DNA of 64,000 nucleotides, from positions 4,856-68,855 of the forward strand of contig JBOGEX010000057.1 of NCBI GenBank assembly GCA_050741915.1, written 5' to 3'. The stretch's first letter is position 1, and every line of letters begins with the position of its first letter. Positions 453 through 62,578 of the stretch are shown one piece after another. The notes beneath the pieces were generated by a model. The model did no database searches. It saw nothing but the letters and a program-made list of their open reading frames with translations, and had not been told where the DNA came from. The DNA is from Acidimicrobiia bacterium. Its GTDB lineage: Bacteria > Actinomycetota > Acidimicrobiia > Spongiisociales > ZC4RG35. A program made the translations under genes and the position numbers.

Positions 453-548
453 GATCATCTCCTCCTTCTGGTTGGTTGTTCCCAAGCGTCGACTTACCTA
501 CACGTCGAACGGGAAAGGGCCAGATCGACATTTCGATGCACATTTTTT

Positions 549-600
549 GTGCTGTGGGCTGCAGAGGTTGTTGGACAGCCTCTACAACCCTGGGTTCGCA
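549..600 (-). repeat. Stop-proximal hairpin element, copy R1
   Basis: On the minus strand: tgcgaacccagggttg|tagaggctgtccaacaacctctg|cagcccacagcac. Starts 2 nt after the TAG of gene 602..955. Confidence 0.85.
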
Positions 601-8254: not shown

Positions 8255-9379
8255 ATGACCAGCCCGGGGTCGGGAGCGAAGGCCGAGACCAAGTTCTTCG
8301 ACCTGCCCGCATTCAAGATGCGGAGCGGGGATCTCCTGCCCCGGGTTCGCCTCGCCTATGAGCTGTATGGCGAGATCAATCCGGCCGGCGACAATCTGAT
8401 CCTGCTTTTCCATGCCCTGACCGGAAGCCAGCATGCGGCGGGGTTCACTGCTGCGGTGGAAGGGGTCGAGCGCTGGGTCGAGGAGAACCAGACGGGATGG
8501 TGGGAGGGCTTTGTCGGGAAGGGCATGGCCGTCGATACCGATCGCTTGGCCGTGCTCTGTGTCAACTATCTCGGTGGCTGCTATGGCACCACCGGGCCTC
8601 CATCGATCAACGACGACACTGGCCTCCGATATGGGCCTGATTTCCCTCCGGTCCATCTGGCCGACATCGTCGATACGCAGTTACCTCTCCTCGATCACCT
8701 CGGGGTGCGGGCAGTACGGGCGGTGGCGGGAGCGTCCGTGGGCGCCTTGCTTTCGCTCTCTCTGGCGGCGCGTTATCCCGACCGAGTGCGAAGTGTCATC
8801 GCCCTCGCCGGCGGTCTCGGGGCCACGACTCTCCATCGCATGCTCAACTTCGAGCAGAAGTTAGCGATCCTCAATGACCCCAACTTTGCCGGCGGTCACT
8901 ATTACGACGGCGAGTTTCCATCAGGTGGGCTGGCACTGGCTCGGATCATCAGTCATAAAGCCTTTGTTTCCATCGATGCGATTCGTTCCCGGGCTGGCGC
9001 GGAGGTGATCGATCATCCCTACGTCACTCATCCGGTCGAGAGCTATTTCTGGCACCAGGGGGAGAAGCTCGTCATCCGCTTCGACCCCAACAGCTATCTG
9101 CGGATCATCGATGCCTGGTCGAACTACGACCTGCTGTCCGATACGGGCGCAGCCAGGTACGAGGACGCACTGGCAGCGTGTCGTGACCAGCAGTGGCACG
9201 TGTTCACGATCGACACCGATGCCTGCTTCTACCCCGATGAACAGCGGCAGTTGGTGGAGGCCTTATGGGCGGCGGGGGTTGAGGTGCAGTGGACCAAGGT
9301 CTCGTCGCGAAAGGGCCATGACGCGTTTCTGACCGAACCTGCGCTCTTCGACGAGGCCCTGCGCCAAGCGCTCGCTTAG
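8255..9379 (+). CDS. metX: Homoserine O-acetyltransferase
   Basis: N-terminal pattern F..L..F.M.SG..L....LAYELYGE.N..GDN.IL..HALTGS.H and an alpha/beta hydrolase core GASVGA. Confidence 0.9.
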   Translation: MTSPGSGAKAETKFFDLPAFKMRSGDLLPRVRLAYELYGEINPAGDNLILLFHALTGSQHAAGFTAAVEGVERWVEENQTGWWEGFVGKGMAVDTDRLAVLCVNYLGGCYGTTGPPSINDDTGLRYGPDFPPVHLADIVDTQLPLLDHLGVRAVRAVAGASVGALLSLSLAARYPDRVRSVIALAGGLGATTLHRMLNFEQKLAILNDPNFAGGHYYDGEFPSGGLALARIISHKAFVSIDAIRSRAGAEVIDHPYVTHPVESYFWHQGEKLVIRFDPNSYLRIIDAWSNYDLLSDTGAARYEDALAACRDQQWHVFTIDTDACFYPDEQRQLVEALWAAGVEVQWTKVSSRKGHDAFLTEPALFDEALRQALA

Positions 9380-9570
9380 CCCCCCTCCCCCCTCCCGGCT
9401 TCTGTTTCTCCCCCCAAGGAACGTTCCCCCTCCCCGGCTGCGCCGGTACGACGAGGGGAAAACAGTGAGCGTTGGGGGGAGTACCCCCTAAGGGGGGGTT
9501 TCTCGCGCAGTGAGCGGTCTGCTTCACCCCCCTCCCGGCTTCGCCGGCTCTCCCCCCTGCGGGGGGAGAA
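9380..9570. repeat. C/G-tract modular repeat element, copy A
   Basis: Shares modules with 61174-61310. The string ccccctccccggctgcgccggtac is identical in both copies. cccggcttctgtttctcccc matches ccccggctgctgtttctccc, agcgttggggggagt matches agcgctggggggagt, and ctcccccctgcgggg matches ctcccccctgcggga. Contains the hairpins CTCCCCCC-TGC-GGGGGGAG and CCGGC-TTC-GCCGG. Confidence 0.85.
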
Positions 9571-10717
9571 ACGCGGGGATACCCGTGATGGCCTGGCCGA
9601 GGATGAGGGTGTGGATTTCGTTGGTTCCCTCATACGTGGAGACCGTTTCCAGGTTGGCCATATGCCGGATCACCGGGTACTCGAGCGTGATCCCATTGGC
9701 ACCGAGGACGGAGCGAGCAGAGCGAGCGACTTCGAGTGCGTTGCGGACGTTGTCGAGCTTGCCAAAACTCACCTGCTCCGGACTCAATCGGCCTTCATCC
9801 TTCATCCGACCGAGGTGGAGAGCAAGCAAAGTGCCGCGGTTGACGATCACCATCATCTCCACCAGCTTCCGCTGGGTGAGCTGGAACGAGGCGATCGGCC
9901 CGCCAAACTGCTCGCGTTCCTTCGCATACTCCAGCGCCGATTCGTAACACGCTCGGGCGGCGCCCATCACTCCGAAGAGAATTCCGAAGCGTGCTTCGCT
10001 CAGACAGGAGAGCGGTCCCCGCATCGAAGAAACGCCGGGTAGGACGAACTCGTCTGGGATGCGAACCTCCTCCAGCACCAACTCGGAGGTGACCGAAGCC
10101 CGCAGCGAGACCTTGCGATGGATCACATTGGCGGTGAAACCATTCGTGTCAGTGGGGACGATGAAGCCTCTGATCCCGCCTTCGGTTCGAGCCCAGATGA
10201 TGGCGATGTCGGCGACGTTGCCGTTGGTGATCCACATCTTGGTTCCGTTCAACACCCAATCTGATCCATCCTTGTGGGCGGCGGTCCTCATCGACGACGG
10301 GTCGGATCCGGAGTCAGGTTCGGTCAGGCCGAAGCAGCCAAGAACATCACCCGCGGCCATCTGTGGCAGCCATTCCTGTTTCTGCTCCTCGGAGCCAAAT
10401 CTCCAGATCGGGAACATGGCCAGCGACCCCTGGACCGAGACGAAGCTGCGGGTGCCCGAGTCGCCCGCCTCCAACTCCAGGCAGGCCAAACCGTAAGCGG
10501 TAGCGCTGGTTCCGGCGCATCCATAACCCTCGAGGTGCATCCCCAGCAATCCGAGCTTGCCCATGTCCTTGGCGATTTCATGGGGAAAGGTGCCTTGCTC
10601 CCACCAGTCAGCCACCTCGGGAAGAATTCTCTCTTCGGTGAATTGACGGACCGTGCTGCGGAGGAGCTTCTCCTCGTCGGTGAGGAGCATGTCGAGGTCG
10701 AGGAAGTCAGAGGACAT
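9524..10717 (-). CDS. Acyl-CoA dehydrogenase (glutaryl-CoA dehydrogenase-like)
   Basis: GCFGLTEPDSGSD and TYEGTNEIHTLILGQAITGI. The last ~14 aa (LPPQGGEPAKPGGG) are encoded by repeat copy A. Confidence 0.88.
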   Translation of the reverse strand: MSSDFLDLDMLLTDEEKLLRSTVRQFTEERILPEVADWWEQGTFPHEIAKDMGKLGLLGMHLEGYGCAGTSATAYGLACLELEAGDSGTRSFVSVQGSLAMFPIWRFGSEEQKQEWLPQMAAGDVLGCFGLTEPDSGSDPSSMRTAAHKDGSDWVLNGTKMWITNGNVADIAIIWARTEGGIRGFIVPTDTNGFTANVIHRKVSLRASVTSELVLEEVRIPDEFVLPGVSSMRGPLSCLSEARFGILFGVMGAARACYESALEYAKEREQFGGPIASFQLTQRKLVEMMVIVNRGTLLALHLGRMKDEGRLSPEQVSFGKLDNVRNALEVARSARSVLGANGITLEYPVIRHMANLETVSTYEGTNEIHTLILGQAITGIPAFLPPQGGEPAKPGGG

Positions 10718-23873: not shown

Positions 23874-23914
23874 TGTGAAGGTTTGCGCGGGCACTGGCCG
23901 CGAGGACCTTCACA
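23874..23914. repeat. 41-nt palindromic (REP-like) unit 1
   Basis: tgtgaaggtttgcgcgggcactggccgcgaggaccttcaca. Outer stem TGTGAAGGT/ACCTTCACA is 9 bp perfect; inner stem is CGCGG/CCGCG. Confidence 0.85.
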
Positions 23915-23935: not shown

Positions 23936-23976
23936 TGTGAAGGTTTGCGCGGGCCCTGGCCGCGAGGATCTTCACA
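23936..23976. repeat. 41-nt palindromic (REP-like) unit 2
   Basis: tgtgaaggtttgcgcgggccctggccgcgaggatcttcaca. Matches unit 1 at 39/41 positions, 62 nt downstream of it. Confidence 0.85.
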
Positions 23977-28740: not shown

Positions 28741-28792
28741 CGCGAACCCAGGGTTGTAGACGTTGTCCAACAGCGTCTACAGCCCAGAGAAC
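28741..28792 (+). repeat. Stop-proximal hairpin element, copy R2
   Basis: cgcgaacccagggttg|tagacgttgtccaacagcgtcta|cagcccagagaac. The 15-bp stem has two G-U pairs in this orientation. It abuts the glnA stop at 28794. Confidence 0.85.
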
Positions 28793-28793
28793 G

Positions 28794-30218
28794 TCAGACG
28801 TCGTAGAAGAGGTAGAACTCGTAGGGGTGGGGGCGGAGACGAATGGCATCCACCTCGCGCGCCTGCTTGTACTCGATCCAGGTCGAGATGAGCTCCTCGG
28901 AGAACACACCACCGGAGAGAAGGAAGTCGTGGTCCGCTTCCAACGCCGCCAGCGCCTCGTCCAACGAACCCGGCACCGAAGGAAGGTTGCGCAACTCCTC
29001 AGGGGGCAGGTCGTAGATGTCCTTGTCCACCGGGTCGAGCGGTTCGATCCGGTTCTGCACGCCGTCGAGGCCAGCCAGAAGCATGGCCGAGAAGGCCAGG
29101 TACGGGTTGCAGCTTGGATCCGGGCAGCGGAACTCGAGACGCTTGGCGGCAGGCTTCTGGCTGTATTGCGGGATGCGGATGGCGGCCGAGCGGTTACGGG
29201 ACGAATAGACCAGGTTGACCGGGGCCTCGTAGCCCGGCACCAGCCGCCGGTAGGAGTTGGTGGTGGGGGCGGCGAACGCCAGGACCGAGGGAGCATGCTT
29301 GAGTAGTCCACCGATGTACCACCGGGCCATGTCCGACAGCCCCGCATACCCCGCCTCGTCGTAGAACAAGGGCTTTCCATCCGACCAGAGCGATTGGTGG
29401 GTGTGCATCCCTGAGCCGTTGTCCTCGAAGATCGGCTTGGGCATGAAAGTCACGCTCTTCCCGTGGGCCCAAGCGACGCTTTTCACGATGTACTTGTAGA
29501 GAGTCACCTTGTCGGCCATCCGTAGCAAGGTGTCATAGCGCATGTCGATTTCGGCTTGCCCGGCAGTGCCAACCTCGTGGTGCTGCACCTCGATCTCGAT
29601 CCCCGCCGTCTCCAATGACGCCGTCATCTCCGACCGGAGATCCTGGAAATGGTCGGTGGGGGGGACCGGGAAGTACCCCTCCTTGTATCGAGGCTTGTAG
29701 CCGAGGTTCCCGCCCGGCTCTTCCCGACCGGAGTTCCAGGCTCCTTCTTCCGAGTCGACGAAGTAATAGGCCGAGTGCTGGTTCTGACCGAAGCGAGCCG
29801 AGTCGAAGATGTAGAACTCGGCCTCGGGGCCCCAGTAGGAGGTTTCGGCGATGCCGGTCGAGGTGAGATAGGCCTCGGCCTTCTTGGCGACGTAACGAGG
29901 GTCGCGATCGTAAGGCTCGCCGGTCAGGGGGTCATGGACGAAGCAATAGAGGAGGAGAGTCTTCCGGCTGCGAAAGGGATCGTCGACAGCCGAACTGGGG
30001 TCGGGGATGAGGAGCATGTCTGACTCCTGGATGGCCTGGAAACCCCGAATCGAGGAGCCGTCGAAGCCGTACCCCTCTTCGAACCCGTCTTCGGTCAATT
30101 GCTTGATCGGGATAGTGAAGTGCTGCACCTGACCCGGCAGGTCGCAGAAACGAAGGTCGACGAACTCGTACTCCCCGTCCTTGGCCATCTTCAAAACATC
30201 CGCCGGCGAATTCGCCAT
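28794..30218 (-). CDS. glnA: Glutamine synthetase type I
   Basis: [29 protein letters not shown] and [13 protein letters not shown]. Start set at ATG 30218, 8 nt after AAGGAG. Confidence 0.95.
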
Positions 30219-35642: not shown

Positions 35643-35670
35643 GGGGAGGGTGAGGGTAGGCGGCGACGTT

Positions 35671-35710
35671 CTGCGCGGATTTTCTCGGCTTATGGCGCGA
35701 AAAATCCGGC
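35671..35710. repeat. Hairpin repeat X1 (related to 54733-54775)
   Basis: ctgcgcggattttctcggcttatggcgcgaaaaatccggc. It shares the first 13 nt and the AAAATCCG arm with X2. Lies in the divergent ycaQ-like/purB intergenic region. Confidence 0.5.
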
Positions 35711-35726
35711 CAGGTACCCTCACGCC

Positions 35727-39184: not shown

Positions 39185-39188
39185 TTTC

Positions 39189-39240
39189 TGCGAACCCAGG
39201 GTTGACAGCGTTGTAGGACAACGCTGTCAACCCACAGAAC
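39189..39240 (+). repeat. Stop-proximal hairpin element, copy R3
   Basis: tgcgaacccagggttg|acagcgttgtaggacaacgctgt|caacccacagaac. Perfect 16-bp stem GGGTTGACAGCGTTGT/ACAACGCTGTCAACCC. Starts 5 nt after the antiporter TGA. Confidence 0.88.
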
Positions 39241-39282
39241 AAACCACTTCCCGTCGAACGCATTCTCTGGCACGGTTGACCG

Positions 39283-40269: not shown

Positions 40270-40322
40270 GAAGCTGTGGGCCCAGAGCGTTGTGGCACCA
40301 CTCCAGCAACCCTGGGTTCGCT
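40270..40322 (-). repeat. Stop-proximal hairpin element, copy R4 (degenerate stem)
   Basis: On the minus strand: agcgaacccagggttg|ctggagtggtgccacaacgctctg|ggcccacagcttc. The 5' flank is conserved at 15/16 positions. Its first G is the G of the ROK kinase TAG stop. Confidence 0.75.
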
Positions 40323-53910: not shown

Positions 53911-54732
53911 ATGCAACGCTGCAAGCCACTAGTTCTCCTCGCCCTCACGCCCTTGCTGTTCGCCTGTGGAGCCTCTTCGGGAGGCCTGGCCGACGACCTC
54001 AAGCTCAACGAAGACCCAGCATCAATCCTCCTCGCCGTCACCAGTGCCGGGGGTTTCGTTCCGATTGAGTTCATGGTCAACCAAGGCCCCTACCTGGTTC
54101 TGACGCGGGGTGGAGAACTGATCCATCAAGGACCTCAGATTGAGATCTATCCAGGGCCGCTTCTCGCCAACTGGCTCGTGACCCAGCTCGATGAGGAATC
54201 GATGCTCTTCGTTCTGGAGGAACTCGATGCGCTCAACTTCGACGAGATCGGTCAGGTCGAGAAAAACGACGCCACCGGAGTGGCCGACGCCCCGATCACA
54301 ACAGTGCGTTTCTACAACCAGGACGGACAGCACTCCTTTGCCGTCTATGCCCTCGGGATTTCGGATCAGTCAGCCGACAGCCGGGTGCCGATCCTCGCCA
54401 ACCTGGTCGAACGACTCGGAACCCTCACGAATTTTTCGTCCCAGAGCTACGTGCCTGAAGCAATACAGGTCGTCGCCGGGGTGGGTGCCGGGGAGATCGA
54501 TGCGGCAGTCGCCAATGTTCGCGACTGGCCCTTGCTGGATTCGTACGCCGGCATGGCCGAGATCGGGTTCGATTGGCGTTGCGCGACCTTTGAGGGAGAT
54601 CAAGCCCAGCAACTTCTCGACGTGTTCGCCGAAGCCAATCAGGCCACTCGCTGGACCCTCGAAGGATCTGAGTATCAGATCCTGGTGAGGCCCTTCTTTC
54701 CGAACGAAGATCCCTGCGAACCTCTCGGCTAG
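53911..54732 (+). CDS. Hypothetical lipoprotein
   Basis: MQRCKPLVLLALTPLLFAC lipobox signal. ORF 53875 trimmed to ATG 53911. Confidence 0.6.
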   Translation: MQRCKPLVLLALTPLLFACGASSGGLADDLKLNEDPASILLAVTSAGGFVPIEFMVNQGPYLVLTRGGELIHQGPQIEIYPGPLLANWLVTQLDEESMLFVLEELDALNFDEIGQVEKNDATGVADAPITTVRFYNQDGQHSFAVYALGISDQSADSRVPILANLVERLGTLTNFSSQSYVPEAIQVVAGVGAGEIDAAVANVRDWPLLDSYAGMAEIGFDWRCATFEGDQAQQLLDVFAEANQATRWTLEGSEYQILVRPFFPNEDPCEPLG

Positions 54733-54775
54733 CTGCGCGGATTTTTGGCGCTATAGGTCAGGAAAATCCGCGCAC
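54733..54775. terminator. Perfect 12-bp hairpin between convergent genes (repeat X2)
   Basis: TGCGCGGATTTT (54734-54745) pairs with AAAATCCGCGCA (54763-54774) around a 17-nt loop. Its 5' arm and flank are shared with 35671-35710. Confidence 0.5.
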
Positions 54776-54785
54776 AACGAGTGGG

Positions 54786-60029: not shown

Positions 60030-60481
60030 CGCAATTCTTTGAAGAGGTCGAACGGTTCCCCGCATGAGCTACAAACCATCAAAGCCTTGCAGGCGGTGGA
60101 TCCGAACTCGCTGACCGTACGGGAGACGGCTTGGCAGAGTGGACAAAAGACATTGGCAGACAGATCGGGCGGCGCAATGCCGTTACCGGCGAGGAGTTGC
60201 CGGCCCTGGTCGGTGATGTCGTCCGTGGTCCAGGCAGGGTGCAACACTGTTCTCACCACCGCCGCGAAACCTTCGCTCGCAAGTGTCGCTTCGATGTCCG
60301 ATCGAATGACTTCCATCGCCGGGCACCCCGAGTAGGTGGGGGTGATGCTCACGGTGACCGTGTTGTCTTCGATCTCGACTGAGCGCAGGATGCCAAGGTC
60401 GGCAATCGACAAGAACGGGATTTCCGGGTCGCAGACGCGGGCAACGATCGCCACCGGATCGCCTGTGGTTCCGATCACCAT
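60026..60481 (-). CDS. paaD: Phenylacetyl-CoA epoxidase subunit PaaD (DUF59 type)
   Basis: VCDPEIPFLSIADLGILR...TPTYSGCPA and a C-terminal CPLC...CSSC. ORF trimmed to ATG 60481. Confidence 0.88.
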   Translation of the reverse strand: MVIGTTGDPVAIVARVCDPEIPFLSIADLGILRSVEIEDNTVTVSITPTYSGCPAMEVIRSDIEATLASEGFAAVVRTVLHPAWTTDDITDQGRQLLAGNGIAPPDLSANVFCPLCQAVSRTVSEFGSTACKALMVCSSCGEPFDLFKELR

Positions 60482-61314
60482 TTTGCACCCGGATAGGCCC
60501 GAGCCATCCACTGCATGTCGGCCAGGATGTGGCCAAGTTTTTCGGTGTGGAGCCCCTCCCGTCCACCTCGTCGGGCAACTGGAGGCTGGGCCAGGTCGAG
60601 GCCGGCATTGGCGAGGGCTGGCCGAAGACGGTTCTCGAAACTGGGACGAAGGTCGGGATGGGCGTCGAACATCTCGTCGACAAAACGGGTCATGGCATCG
60701 AGACCGGCTTGCATCCGGCGATGGCTCTCGTCGGTACCGGCGCCGAGACGCTCGGCCCAGGTGGAAGAGTGACGCCAGTGATAGCGAGCCTCGAGCAACG
60801 CCTTGGCTGCCAATCCTGCCACGACGGGGTCTGAGTCTGAGCTGAGCCGTTCCCAAAGGTCGATCTGGTAGCAGTCGATCAAAAGGTGGCGGGCGATGGT
60901 TTGGCCGAAGTCGCCATTGGGCTGCTCGCAGATCAAGAGGTTGCGGAACTCGCGCGCACCCCGTTTCATCGCCAGGTCGTCCTCCGTTCGGCCTTCACCT
61001 TCGAGGGCGCCGTAATGGGCGAGAAGGCCGCGGGCGACGCCGAGGTGATCGAGGGCGATGTTGCCGACGGCGAGGTCGAGCTCGAGATCGGGGGCCGAGG
61101 CGACCCAGCCCGAGAGCTGCTGGGCGAGGATGAGGTTGTCATCGGCGTGCCCGAGGACGGCAAGAAGGGACACGCCCCCCCCTTCCCCGGCTGCTGTTTC
61201 TCCCTCCAACGAGCGTAGCGAGCGCTGGGGGGAGTGGCCCGAAGGGCCGGGGGGGGATCCCCCCTCCCCGGCTGCGCCGGTACTCCCCCCTGCGGGACGA
61301 GCGACAGCGCTCAC
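60475..61314 (-). CDS. paaC: Phenylacetyl-CoA epoxidase subunit PaaC (N-terminus either extended through the repeat or starting at GTG 61173)
   Basis: The core starts at LLAVLGHADDNLILAQQLSGW. The 47 codons upstream (61314-61174) are repeat copy B, in frame and GTGA-coupled to the paaB stop. An alternative GTG start lies at 61173. Confidence 0.85.
   Translation of the reverse strand: MSAVARPAGGSTGAAGEGGSPPGPSGHSPQRSLRSLEGETAAGEGGGVSLLAVLGHADDNLILAQQLSGWVASAPDLELDLAVGNIALDHLGVARGLLAHYGALEGEGRTEDDLAMKRGAREFRNLLICEQPNGDFGQTIARHLLIDCYQIDLWERLSSDSDPVVAGLAAKALLEARYHWRHSSTWAERLGAGTDESHRRMQAGLDAMTRFVDEMFDAHPDLRPSFENRLRPALANAGLDLAQPPVARRGGREGLHTEKLGHILADMQWMARAYPGAKW
61174..61310. repeat. C/G-tract modular repeat element, copy B
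   Basis: See copy A for the shared modules. Contains GGCCC-gaag-GGCC, GGGGGGGG-at-CCCCCC and CCGGC-tgc-GCCGG hairpins. It fills exactly the space between the paaB stop and the conserved paaC core. Confidence 0.85.
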
Positions 61315-61649
61315 ATCTGGCCGACTTCATCGGGAATGTCGTAATGAGTGGCGTGGCGGTACGGCTTCTCGATCGAGCCGAAGAAAGCGGGAGCGTCGTC
61401 TGGGTCGGACGCGACGATCTCGCTCGAGGCCACCACCCAGATGCTGACACCTTCCACCCGTCGGGTATAAACGTCGCGGGCCGAAAGCAATGCCGACCCG
61501 GCGTCCGAGGCATGGAGACCGCCCACGTGAACATGAGAAAGGCCCCGCTTCTGGCGAATGAATACCTCCCACAGTGGCCAGACCGACTCGGCCTCGCGAC
61601 CGACTTCGGTTTCCGCCTCGCCAGCGACCTTGGGCACCGAATAGGTCAT
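61311..61649 (-). CDS. paaB: Phenylacetyl-CoA epoxidase subunit PaaB
   Basis: [25 protein letters not shown]...AL..ARDVY.RR. ATGA overlap with the paaA stop. Confidence 0.9.
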
Positions 61650-62578
61650 GACGCTCCCCTGTTCCTCTCCCCAAAGGCGGCCGCGGCCTCGCGCACCCAA
61701 GCCCCTTCTTCCCACGCCTTGCGCTTGTGTTCGATGCGCTCGGTGTTCATCGGGCCGTGTCCCTTGACCACGGACCAGAACTCGTCCCAGTCGATCGGCC
61801 CGAAGTCGTAGTGCTTGCGGCCCTCGTTCCAAGCCAGGTCGGGATCAGGAATGACCAGGCCCAGATAATCGGCTTGGGGGACGGTCATGTCGACGAACTC
61901 CTGACGAAGATCGTCGTTCGAAACTCGTTTGATCTTCCATTCGATCGATTGCTCGGAGTGAGTCGAGTCCGAGTCGTGAGGACCAAACATCATCAACGAA
62001 GGCCACCACCATCGGTTGAGCGCGTCCTGTGCCATCGCTTTCTGCTCTGCAGTTCCCTGGCAGAGAGTGATCATGATCTCGTAACCCTGTCGTTGATGGA
62101 AGGACTCCTCGAGACAGATCTTCACCATGGCTCGCGCATAGGGTCCGTACGAGCAGCGCTTGAGCATGACCTGGTTGGTGATGGCGGCGCCGTCGACCAA
62201 CCAGCCGATGGTGCCCATGTCAGCCCAAGACAGGGCGGGGTAGTTGAAAATGGACGAATACTTCTGGCGGCCGCTGTGCAGCAACTCCATCAACTGGTCG
62301 CGGGATACGCCAAGCGTCTCGGCGGCGGAGTAGAGATAGAGGCCATGGCCCGCTTCGTCCTGGACCTTGGCGATGAGAATCGCCTTCCGGCGCAAGGTGG
62401 GTGCGCGGCTGATCCAATTGCCCTCGGGTTGCATTCCGATGATCTCGGAGTGGGCGTGCTGGGCGATCTGACGGACGAGCGTCTGGCGATAGGCCTCGGG
62501 CATCCAGTCGGCGGGTTCGATCTTTTCCTCGGCCTCGAGCAAAGCCCGAAACTTCGCTTCCCCGTTGGCGCTTGGCAT
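61646..62578 (-). CDS. paaA: Phenylacetyl-CoA epoxidase catalytic subunit PaaA
   Basis: Di-iron ligand regions QHAHSEIIG and DEAGHGLY. Start moved to ATG 62578 (AGGAG lies 5 nt upstream), because the first 12 codons of ORF 62614 are the operator palindrome. Confidence 0.92.

What the first reader, a model, noticed from the sequence alone, without database searches (positions are those of the whole stretch)
61174..61310. A C/G-tract repeat element sits in frame between paaB and paaC, GTGA-coupled to the paaB stop (MIRU-like behaviour)
**Seen in sequence.**
- The 137 nt between the paaB stop (61311-61313) and the first conserved paaC residues (GTG 61173, VSLLAVLGHADDN) are a copy of the element also found at 9380-9570.
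- Shared modules include the identical string ccccctccccggctgcgccggtac, ccggct(g/t)ctgtttctccc, agcg(c/t)tggggggagt and ctcccccctgcggg.
- The element is open in the paaC frame for all 47 codons ([47 protein letters not shown]).
- That frame begins with a GTG that overlaps the paaB TGA.
- On the sense (minus) strand the RNA is G-tract rich. It can form GGCCC-UUCG-GGCC, CCGGC-GCA-GCCGG and G6-8/C6-8 helices, and it has multiple G3+ runs, so a G-quadruplex is possible.

**Established knowledge.** Mycobacterial MIRUs are intercistronic repeats that keep small ORFs overlapping the flanking stop and start codons.

**Inference.** This is an intercistronic mobile or expanding repeat that is tolerated because it preserves translational coupling. 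It is either translated as a low-complexity N-terminal extension of PaaC or acts as a structured spacer.
Basis: partly seen in the sequence, partly recalled or inferred. Interest (0 to 1): 0.66.

Follow-up and report, generated by a model that had tools for sequence, protein, structure and literature searches.

The report
In-frame hairpin repeat inside paaC start
A 137-base copy of a GC-rich hairpin repeat found in many Acidimicrobiia genomes sits just after the start codon of the paaC gene and has stayed in frame in every relative examined, so it is most likely translated as a floppy tail on the enzyme, much like the palindromic elements found inside Rickettsia genes.

Summary
Window 61174-61310 is a copy of the element at 9380-9575, in the same orientation and sharing a 24-nt identical string. 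Its frame is open and starts at a GTG that overlaps the paaB TGA.

Three points change the reading.
- **The GTGA overlap is not part of the element.** It is the ancestral paaC start, also present in element-free relatives. The element therefore lies inside the first codons of paaC, not between the genes.
- **An open frame alone means little.** Five of the element's six frames are stop-free.
- **The frame is conserved.** Seven orthologous junctions carry different module sets, spanning 87-228 nt from the start to the conserved DDN. All are multiples of 3 and stop-free. Three of them have no other canonical in-frame start. The element is therefore translated there, as a Gly/Pro/Ser-rich tail that AlphaFold2 predicts to be disordered.

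The element belongs to a mosaic family of G6AG/CTC6 hairpins with covariation, found in many Acidimicrobiia MAGs and in some Proteobacteria. Most copies start 0-40 nt after a stop codon. About a quarter are carried in frame inside or at the ends of genes: LigA, E2 acyltransferases, CtaD and the window's own glutaryl-CoA dehydrogenase.

It behaves like REP/BIME elements in its anatomy and like Rickettsia palindromic elements in being carried in frame. It is not a MIRU. In this window a unique GTG at 61171-61173 could also serve as a start.

The parts
61311..61313 (-). paaB stop codon TGA
   Evidence: sequence. The ORF 61311..61832 ends ...[14 protein letters not shown]. The PaaB Pfam family is on record for the orthologous genes.
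61312..61314 (-). GTG overlapping the paaB stop (ATGTGA). This is the ancestral paaC start codon and is not part of the element.
   Evidence: The same ATGTGA junction starts paaC in the element-free relatives L011, L007, L008 and L009.
61174..61310 (-). Compared with the empty site in L011, the inserted DNA starts after GTG AGC, at about 61308.
61259..61301 (-). Module U1 with a degenerate first hairpin: CTCGTCCC-GCA-GGGGGGAG, then TA, then hairpin CCGGC-GCA-GCCGG, then GGAGGGGGG. It encodes ..RPAGGSTGAAGEGG.
   Evidence: It aligns with 25 other U1 copies. Hairpin 2 is 98.5% paired across copies, with two pairs changed on both sides.
61196..61256 (-). Module U2: a C8 run, hairpin GGCCC-TTCG-GGCC, then A, then stem CTCCCCCC...GGAGGGAG around a 19-nt loop, then AAAC. 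It encodes PPGPSGHSPQRSLRSLEGET.
   Evidence: The same module is present in L001, L010, L020, L021, L028, L035, L038, L102, L108 and L237.
61174..61195 (-). Tail: the 3' half of a U1 (AGCAGCCGGGGAAGGGGGGGGC). This purine-rich tract could act as a Shine-Dalgarno sequence for the GTG that follows.
   Evidence: The tail ..GGGGAGGGGGGCGCG is shared by all element-bearing junctions.
61171..61173 (-). GTG directly after the element. It is a possible secondary start, unique to this genome, and is the one gene callers chose (232-aa product P0001).
   Evidence: P0001. The homologous codon is GCG or GCC in L001, L002, L005, L006, L010 and L237.
60475..61170 (-). Conserved body of paaC (1,2-phenylacetyl-CoA epoxidase subunit C).
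   Evidence: Pfam PF05138 and 3299 homologues. It aligns with E. coli PaaC structures from query residue 54.
9380..9575 (-). Second copy of the element (U1, spacer, U2 with a nested half-U1, tail). It fills the space between the convergent metX and glutaryl-CoA dehydrogenase genes.
9524..9568 (-). Last 14 codons and the stop of glutaryl-CoA dehydrogenase (LPPQGGEPAKPGGG*), all encoded by the element.
   Evidence: Solved GCDH homologues end 0-2 residues after the ...TG..AF motif.
9377..9379 (+). metX (homoserine O-acetyltransferase-like) stop codon TAG. The element starts at the very next base.

Best explanation
**What it is.** The 137-nt stretch is one copy of a dispersed, mosaic family of GC-rich hairpin modules. 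U1 is CTCCCCCC-GCA-GGGGGGAG, then a 5-bp hairpin with a GAA or GCA loop, then a G tract. U2 is a small hairpin followed by a CTC6/G6AG stem. The family is common in Acidimicrobiia.

**Where it sits.** It was inserted two codons into paaC. The native paaC start codon is the GTG that overlaps the paaB stop (GTGA).

**How it most likely works (inferred steps).**
1. Ribosomes that finish paaB re-initiate at that GTG.
2. They read through the element in the frame ..PAGGSTGAAGEGGSPPGPSGHSPQR..
3. The product is PaaC with a disordered N-terminal tail of about 47 residues rich in Gly, Pro, Ser and Ala. The tail lies outside the fold.

**Why it persists.** The insertion survives only where it is in frame and stop-free. 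That is why every lineage that gained, lost or swapped modules at this site kept a length divisible by three.

**Specific to this genome.** A GCG-to-GTG change right after the element, preceded by the element's G-rich tail, may also allow a near-native-length PaaC to be made. The two starts are not mutually exclusive.

**Shown:** family membership, position relative to the ancestral start, frame conservation, lack of alternative starts in three relatives, and in-frame carriage of other copies in conserved proteins.

**Inferred:** actual translation in this organism, harmlessness of the tail, and how the family moves.
For: **Family membership.**
- There is a second copy in the window.
- There are about 47 further homologous regions in Acidimicrobiia and a few proteobacterial genomes.
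- Hairpin 2 covaries: 98.5% of cells are paired, 10 cells are changed on both sides, and 0 of 500 shuffles reach that.

**Ancestral start.** Element-free paaC orthologues start at the same ATGTGA overlap. Examples are L011 (82% identical protein), L007, L008 and L009.

**Frame conservation.**
- The distance from the overlapped GTG to the DDN codons is 180, 162, 90, 87, 96 and 228 nt in the window, L001, L002, L005, L006 and L010.
- L237 is a seventh variant, in frame up to the end of its contig.
- All are divisible by 3 and stop-free.
- At least five or six separate length changes are needed, which gives roughly (1/3)^5-6 if unconstrained.

**No alternative start.** L001, L005 and L006 have no in-frame ATG, GTG or TTG other than the overlapped GTG.

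**Tail outside the fold.** AlphaFold2 gives pLDDT below 50 and no secondary structure for residues 1-46, and the fold starts near residue 50. Alignment with PaaC structures starts at residue 54.

**Other copies carried in frame.**
- The LigA adenylation domain in L125 has 24 residues where E. coli LigA has 2.
- E2 acyltransferase linkers in L035, L013, L109 and L056.
- A cytochrome c protein in L121.
- C-terminal tails of CtaD (L077), an ATP-dependent ligase (L063) and the window's own GCDH.
Against: - In this window a canonical GTG follows the element directly, with a purine-rich tract 5 nt upstream. Gene callers chose it (P0001, 232 aa). Here, unlike in the relatives, the element could be an untranslated spacer.
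- Openness of the frame is close to the compositional expectation.
- The junction variants share ancestry: they have a common 3' tail. The number of independent in-frame events is therefore smaller than seven.
- There are no expression or proteomic data.
- Non-canonical starts (CTG, ATC) after the element in the relatives cannot be excluded.
- A profile of the element peptide found almost nothing in the protein database, so the extent of in-frame carriage rests on about 47 loci only.
Confidence: 0.7

Rival explanations
1. Untranslated structured spacer. In this genome paaC starts at GTG 61171-61173, using the element's G-rich tail as a ribosome-binding site. The element is then only an intercistronic hairpin cluster that may stabilise or partition the paaAB and paaCDE parts of the mRNA, as REP/BIME elements do.
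For: The GTG at 61171-61173 is unique to this genome and gives a PaaC of native length (8 residues before HADDN, compared with 5-12 in other orthologues). AAGGGG lies 5 nt upstream. Gene callers chose this start. Most copies of the family are extragenic and close to gene ends.
Against: The homologous codon is GCG or GCC in six relatives, and three of them have no other start. The frame is conserved in all seven variants, which an untranslated spacer would not require. In the minimum-free-energy fold, the G tract and the GTG are paired with the CACUCCCCCC tract. This is weak evidence, because the ensemble is diverse.
Confidence: 0.2
2. MIRU-type coupling. The repeat carries its own small ORF, which starts at the upstream stop and ends at the downstream start, and so passes ribosomes on to paaC.
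For: The element's frame starts at a GTGA overlap with the paaB stop. MIRUs are described as inserting at start codons with -4 spacing (PMC12548453).
Against: There is no stop codon at or near the downstream start, and the frame runs straight into PaaC. The GTGA overlap predates the element. There are no tandem units. Other copies sit after stop codons or inside genes rather than at start codons.
Confidence: 0.02
3. An ordinary, vertically inherited low-complexity N-terminus of PaaC, or a chance compositional resemblance, rather than a repeat element.
For: PaaC N-termini vary in length and are low in complexity across Acidimicrobiia.
Against: The same modules occur at unrelated loci in the window and in dozens of other contigs. 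The closest element-free orthologue (L011, 82% identical) has an 11-codon N-terminus. The motif count is 5 against 0.26 expected.
Confidence: 0.03
4. A cis-regulatory RNA, for example a G-quadruplex or a protein-binding hairpin, that tunes the PaaC:PaaB ratio. This could hold in addition to translation of the element.
For: The sense strand has many G runs. The hairpins are conserved by covariation. The family sits at gene ends, where REP-like elements are known to affect mRNA stability and translation (PMC3184786).
Against: There is no Rfam match. The folding energy is not different from shuffles (z = -0.6 and -1.2). Copies occur in both orientations relative to the neighbouring gene, about 15 the same and 11 opposite, which argues against an RNA-strand-specific role. 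G runs are flanked by complementary C runs that would compete with a quadruplex.
Confidence: 0.05

Closest known systems
Rickettsia palindromic elements (RPEs; Ogata et al. 2000, as summarised in PMC10969869)
   Same: Both are dispersed palindromic repeats of about 50-190 nt that are found in frame inside unrelated housekeeping genes. Both are translated, or here must be read through, as an extra peptide segment placed in loops, linkers or termini where the fold tolerates it.
   Different: The sequence and composition are unrelated: this family is about 75% G+C and built from G and C tracts. The hosts are free-living Acidimicrobiia and Caulobacterales. This family is modular, with U1 and U2 in varying order, whereas RPEs are fixed units. 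Most copies here are extragenic, whereas RPEs were noted for their high intragenic fraction. The family is stop-poor in nearly all six frames, whereas each RPE has one conserved reading frame.
REP sequences and BIMEs (bacterial interspersed mosaic elements) of Proteobacteria
   Same: Both are short GC-rich imperfect palindromes with many copies per genome. Both lie mostly just downstream of stop codons and between convergent genes. Both combine into mosaics of several motif types and occur in both orientations. Stems are maintained by compensatory changes.
   Different: There is no GTAG-type 5' tetranucleotide. Association with a RAYT transposase was not examined. REPs are by definition extragenic, whereas about a quarter of these copies are carried in frame in genes. 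The host phylum is different.
MIRUs (mycobacterial interspersed repetitive units; Supply et al. 1997, as summarised in PMC12548453 and PMC3184786)
   Same: Both are actinobacterial repeats found at an operon junction with a -4 (NTGA) stop/start overlap, and both are compatible with translational coupling.
   Different: MIRUs carry their own small ORF, which ends at the downstream start, and they form tandem arrays. Here the frame is fused to the downstream protein, there are no tandem units, and the overlap is older than the insertion.
Intragenic MITE and ERIC fusions (Delihas 2007, 2011)
   Same: Both are small non-autonomous repeats with open frames that fuse to host ORFs.
   Different: No terminal inverted repeats and no target-site duplication were found at this junction.

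Membership tests
MIRU | [quoted passage not shown] | tested here: not met
   The frame from the GTGA runs without a stop into the PaaC core.
MIRU | The ORF of the repeat starts at or overlaps the stop of the upstream gene. | tested here: met
   GTG 61312-61314 overlaps TGA 61311-61313. The same overlap exists without the element in L011, L007 and L009, so it is not contributed by the repeat.
MIRU | Head-to-tail tandem units of about 46-101 bp. | tested here: not met
   Tandem Repeats Finder reports no array at 61100-61400, and only a 7-nt C-run repeat at 9380-9396.
MIRU | Sequence similarity to the mycobacterial MIRU consensus. | not tested
   No MIRU consensus was available in the tools. The nearest relatives of the window are Acidimicrobiia MAGs.
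REP / BIME | Short GC-rich imperfect palindromes that form stem-loops. | tested here: met
   There is an 8-bp G6AG/CTC6 hairpin and a 5-bp hairpin. Across 26 copies, 97.9% of cells are paired and the changes are compensatory.
REP / BIME | Many dispersed copies, mainly extragenic, near 3' ends and between convergent genes. | tested here: met
   Several copies were found per MAG, for example at least 8 loci from one MAG. About 34 of 47 regions are extragenic, and at least 22 start within 40 nt of a stop codon. Several lie between convergent genes.
REP / BIME | Mosaic clusters that combine different motifs in variable order. | tested here: met
   U1-U2 (window, L020, L021), U2-U1 (L028, L038, L010) and U1-U2-U1 (L035) arrangements were all found.
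REP / BIME | Conserved 5' GTAG-type tetranucleotide next to the palindrome. | tested here: not met
   The conserved 5' flank of U1 is (G)TTT, not GTAG.
REP / BIME | Association with a RAYT (Y1) transposase flanked by the repeats. | not tested
Rickettsia palindromic elements (RPE) | Copies inserted in frame in unrelated protein-coding genes and read as part of the protein. | tested here: met
   PaaC, LigA, four E2 acyltransferases, a cytochrome c protein, CtaD, an ATP-dependent ligase and GCDH all carry copies in frame. Pfam domains lie on both sides where the copy is internal. Actual translation is inferred.
Rickettsia palindromic elements (RPE) | Insertion sites are compatible with the protein fold (surface loops, linkers, termini). 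| tested here: met
   The PaaC tail is predicted to be disordered. The LigA insertion replaces a 2-residue loop. The E2 insertions lie in inter-domain linkers.
Rickettsia palindromic elements (RPE) | Sequence homology to the RPE-1 to RPE-10 families. | not tested
   No RPE sequences were at hand. Homology is very unlikely given about 75% G+C here.
MITE | Terminal inverted repeats and a target-site duplication. | tested here: not met
   The two ends of the element are not complementary. Comparison with the empty site in L011 shows flanks GTGAGC and GCGTCC, which do not form a convincing duplication.

The most novel reading that the evidence does not exclude
This is an undescribed family of mobile hairpin modules, found across phyla (Acidimicrobiia, Caulobacterales and other Proteobacteria), whose sequence is shaped to be readable. 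It is nearly free of stops in all six frames. In the frames actually used in genes it encodes flexible Gly/Pro/Ser/Ala/Glu peptides: SPPAGGSTxEAGEGG, FLPPQGGxPAxPGGG and PPSPxxxVLPPAGGE. It can therefore colonise the ends, linkers and loops of essential genes in free-living bacteria. It would act as a recurrent source of disordered tails and linkers, and would be a GC-rich counterpart of the Rickettsia palindromic elements.
Probability: 0.35. Interest if true: 0.75.

Novelty: new member of a known kind. Interest (0 to 1): 0.55.

Why it matters
**Annotation.** In these genomes, start-codon calls next to the repeat are unreliable. For the same junction, callers gave products of 232, 238, 248-251 and 273 residues.

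**Biology.**
- In-frame carriage of selfish palindromic DNA is best known from the reduced, AT-rich genomes of Rickettsia.
- Finding the same behaviour in GC-rich, free-living Acidimicrobiia would show it is a general outcome of repeat spread under purifying selection. It occurs here even inside the LigA adenylation domain and in E2 linkers, and related modules are present in a cultured Brevundimonas.
- It also offers a route by which disordered tails and linkers can arise.
- The paaB-paaC junction shows how a -4 overlapped start lets an insertion survive: it must stay in frame.

Tried and rejected
- **Rfam scan of the whole window:** no family matched.
- **Single-sequence folding of either strand:** very stable (-84 and -81 kcal/mol), but not different from dinucleotide shuffles (z = -0.6 and -1.2). 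Energy alone says nothing for G/C-tract sequence, so covariation was used instead.
- **Metagenome scan with the paaB 3' end (GARGTMGGSCARATGTGA):** It yielded only a few true junctions and one new element-bearing variant, L237.
- **Profile of the element-encoded peptide against the 5.8-billion protein set:** four weak hits only. The query is too short and compositionally biased.
- **Viral contigs:** no copy found.
- **Literature searches:** nothing found on this family, including a search for the literal hairpin sequence. The Caulobacter CIR paper was not held.
- **Upstream copies as N-terminal fusions:** this was considered for copies that lie upstream of genes. Most have a plausible start codon after the element and were scored as 5'-UTR copies.
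- **Stop-codon depletion of the family:** 28 observed against 112 expected from shuffles. This is real, but it is not an independent test because the copies share a consensus.
Full report
**1. The observation**

On the minus strand, paaB ends ...GQM-TGA at 61311-61313. A GTG at 61312-61314 overlaps that stop. The frame it opens runs for 47 codons ([47 protein letters not shown]) to a second GTG at 61171-61173, where the conserved PaaC sequence VSLLAVLGHADDN begins.

The 137 nt in between align with window 9380-9575 on the same strand at 75% column identity, with three indels.
- A 24-nt string is identical in both copies, and two 42-nt blocks are 81-83% identical (D8, D14, D15).
- The core motif CCCCCYYCCCGGCTKCKSY occurs five times in the window, all within these two places. 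The expectation is 0.26, and none of 100 shuffles reached five.

- Five of the six frames of the element are stop-free, and shuffles of the same composition have 3.35 open frames on average.
- The GTGA overlap does not belong to the element (section 3).

**2. What the element is**

Read in the sense of paaC, the element is built from modules.
- **U1:** (G)TTT-CTCCCCCC-GCA-GGGGGGAG, two bases, a 5-bp hairpin with a GAA or GCA loop (CCGGC-GCA-GCCGG here), then GGAGGGGGG.
- **U2:** a C run, a small hairpin (GGCCC-TTCG-GGCC), an A, a CTCCCCCC...GGGGGGAG stem around a loop of 3 to about 25 nt, then AAAC.

The window copy at paaC is U1 (with a decayed first hairpin), then U2, then a half-U1 tail. 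The copy at 9380 is U1, a spacer, U2 with a nested half-U1, then a tail.

- BLAST with the window copies and two junction copies found about 47 regions outside the paaB-paaC locus that match beyond that hairpin.
- Most are in Acidimicrobiia or Actinomycetota MAGs, with several loci per MAG. Some are in MAGs labelled Acidobacteriota.
- A few are in Proteobacteria, including the cultured Brevundimonas basaltis DSM 25335.
- The same 8-bp hairpin also heads other, different repeat families in Acetobacteraceae, Lindowbacteria, Planctomycetota and Dehalococcoidia.

The modules occur in different orders: U1-U2, U2-U1 and U1-U2-U1.

The second hairpin was not part of the search pattern, and it keeps its pairing through compensatory changes. 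Variants include CCGGC/GCCGG, CCGCC/GGCGG and CCCGC/GCGGG.
- 98.5% of cells are paired.
- Two pairs are changed on both sides, in 10 cells, and 0 of 500 shuffles reach that.
- Slid registers give 50-68% pairing.

Other structural checks:
- There are no tandem units.
- There are no terminal inverted repeats.
- There is no Rfam match.
- Single-sequence folding energies are no better than shuffles.
- No copy was found in viral contigs.

**3. The junction in relatives**

PaaC homologues were collected, and the DNA of eleven relatives was fetched.

Element-free relatives have the same ATGTGA junction, with 8-12 codons from that GTG to the conserved DDN motif. These are L011 (82% protein identity), L007, L008 and L009. 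The GTG overlapping the paaB stop is therefore the ancestral paaC start. The element was inserted two codons downstream of it, inside the gene.

Seven junctions carry the element, each with a different module set.

| Junction | Modules | nt from overlapped GTG to DDN |
|---|---|---|
| window | U1'-U2-tail | 180 |
| L001 | short U1-U2-tail | 162 |
| L237 | U2-...-U1-U2-tail | 198 nt, in frame up to the contig end |
| L010 | U2-U2-x-U1 | 228 |
| L006 | U1 only | 96 |
| L002 | decayed U1 | 90 |
| L005 | decayed U1 | 87 |

- Every length is a multiple of three and every frame is stop-free.
- All seven share the 3' tail ...GGGGAGGGGGGCGCGTCC. This points to a single ancestral insertion followed by several module gains and losses.
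- At least five or six separate length changes all kept the frame. Without constraint that would happen roughly once in 250-700 times.
- L001, L005 and L006 have no in-frame ATG, GTG or TTG between the overlapped GTG and the PaaC core. The codon matching the window's GTG 61171-61173 is GCG or GCC in every relative.
- In those genomes the element has to be translated for PaaC to be made at all.

**4. The protein**
- AlphaFold2 on the 279-residue form gives pLDDT below 50 and no secondary structure for residues 1-46. The helical fold starts near residue 50.
- Alignment with the E. coli PaaC structures starts at residue 54.
- The extension is thus a disordered Gly/Pro/Ser/Ala-rich tail outside the fold.

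**5. Other copies of the family**

Flanking genes were called with a codon-usage likelihood trained on called genes of the relatives. Key cases were checked against Pfam and solved structures.

Of about 47 regions, about 34 are extragenic.
- At least 22 begin within 40 nt after a stop codon, often 0-20 nt. Several fill the gap between convergent genes.
- Both orientations relative to the neighbouring gene occur, about 15 the same and 11 opposite. This is the REP/BIME pattern (PMC3184786).

Six or seven copies are internal and in frame.
- NAD-dependent DNA ligase LigA (L125): the adenylation domain is split, and 24 residues stand where E. coli LigA has 2.
- E2 acyltransferase linkers in L035 (the same MAG as L001), L013, L109 and Brevundimonas L056.
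- A cytochrome c protein (L121), and possibly L047.

Six copies supply C-terminal tails.
- CtaD (L077), an ATP-dependent ligase (L063), and the copies in L066, L108 and L047.
- The window's own glutaryl-CoA dehydrogenase ends ...ITGIPAF-LPPQGGEPAKPGGG*, whereas solved homologues stop 0-2 residues after AF.

Frame usage and stops:
- The frames used in genes are SPPAGGSTxEAGEGG, FLPPQGGxPAxPGGG and, on the other strand, PPSPxxxVLPPAGGE.
- The Arg- and Cys-rich frames were not seen in genes.
- Copies upstream of genes mostly have a plausible start after the element and were scored as 5'-UTR copies.
- The family has fewer stops than its composition predicts, 28 against 112. The copies share a consensus, so this is descriptive only.

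**6. Mechanism and rivals**

The best-supported account is an in-frame insertion of a REP/BIME-like mosaic repeat into the first codons of paaC. Ribosomes that re-initiate at the overlapped GTG read through it. It is tolerated because it encodes a harmless disordered tail. It is kept in frame because otherwise PaaC is lost.

The main rival applies to this genome only. The unique GTG at 61171-61173, with AAGGGG 5 nt upstream, may be used as a start, as the gene caller assumed (P0001). The element would then be an untranslated spacer. I cannot decide between them by computation, and both starts may be used.
- About 0.65-0.7 that read-through from the overlapped GTG occurs here.
- About 0.9 that it occurs in L001, L005 and L006.

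The MIRU model is not met. As described in PMC12548453, it requires a small ORF within the repeat that ends at the downstream start, and here there is no such stop. Chance resemblance and an ordinary low-complexity N-terminus are excluded by the dispersed copies and by the empty site in L011. A regulatory RNA or G-quadruplex role is neither supported nor excluded.

**7. Comparison and novelty**
- In anatomy and distribution the family resembles REP/BIME elements. RAYT association was not tested, and there is no GTAG flank.
- In its in-frame carriage inside housekeeping genes it resembles Rickettsia palindromic elements (PMC10969869).
- I found no description of this family in the searchable literature.
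- I rate it a new member of a known kind. It is of moderate interest as a single locus. It would be of higher interest if the cross-phylum, 'readable in any frame' character of the family holds up.

Noticed in passing
window 9524-9568 (minus strand): The glutaryl-CoA dehydrogenase gene has lost its native stop. It ends 14 codons inside the second copy of the element (LPPQGGEPAKPGGG*). The convergent metX stop (9377-9379) abuts the other end of the same copy.
   Followed up: yes
L125:2629-2677; L035:2796-2955; L013:277-321; L109:4338-4384; L056:1306-1407; L121:4632-4678: Copies of the same repeat are carried in frame inside conserved proteins: the LigA adenylation domain, E2 acyltransferase linkers and a cytochrome c protein. 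One carrier is the cultured Brevundimonas basaltis DSM 25335.
   Followed up: yes
PaaC orthologues P0025, P0030, P0045, P0054, P0055, P0069, P0073, P0076: Other Acidimicrobiia clades have a different N-terminal PaaC extension containing TPDARRQTPD. It looks like a heptanucleotide tandem repeat, (ACGCCAG)n, read through three frames. Others carry SNLKP/SSLEP-type or SAIRDPLSANF-type extensions. The first codons of paaC appear to be a recurrent hotspot for insertion or expansion.
   Followed up: no
window 547-599, 28742-28794, 39188-39243, 40274-40321: A different repeat of about 51 nt that contains a palindrome (GCGAACCCAGGGTTGTAGACGTTGTCCAACAGCGTCTACAGCCCAGAGAAC). It is present four times, in both orientations.
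   Followed up: no
window 23874-23914 and 23936-23976: Two tandemly spaced 41-nt palindromes (TGTGAAGGTTTGCGCGGGCACTGGCCGCGAGGACCTTCACA), 95% identical and 62 nt apart. They look like a paired operator or terminator.
   Followed up: no
window 35667-35719 and 54727-54779: A 53-nt inverted pair, 79% complementary, built around CTGCGCGGATTTT...AAAATCCG. This may be another small repeat family.
   Followed up: no
L014, L022, L030, L034, L043, L051, L089, L091 and others: The hairpin CTCCCCCC-GCA-GGGGGGAG also heads other repeat families in Acetobacteraceae/Roseomonas (…GAGAGGGTTGGGTGAGGGGGG), Lindowbacteria, Planctomycetota and Dehalococcoidia. In Caulobacteraceae the loop is TGC rather than GCA relative to hairpin 2.
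   Followed up: partly
L108:6217-6336: Downstream of this copy lies a secreted protein whose hydrophobic signal segment starts right after the element. The only positively charged n-region available (..RRGEGRRSRERGA) is encoded by the element, from a TTG inside it. This may be a second case of an element-derived N-terminus.
   Followed up: partly
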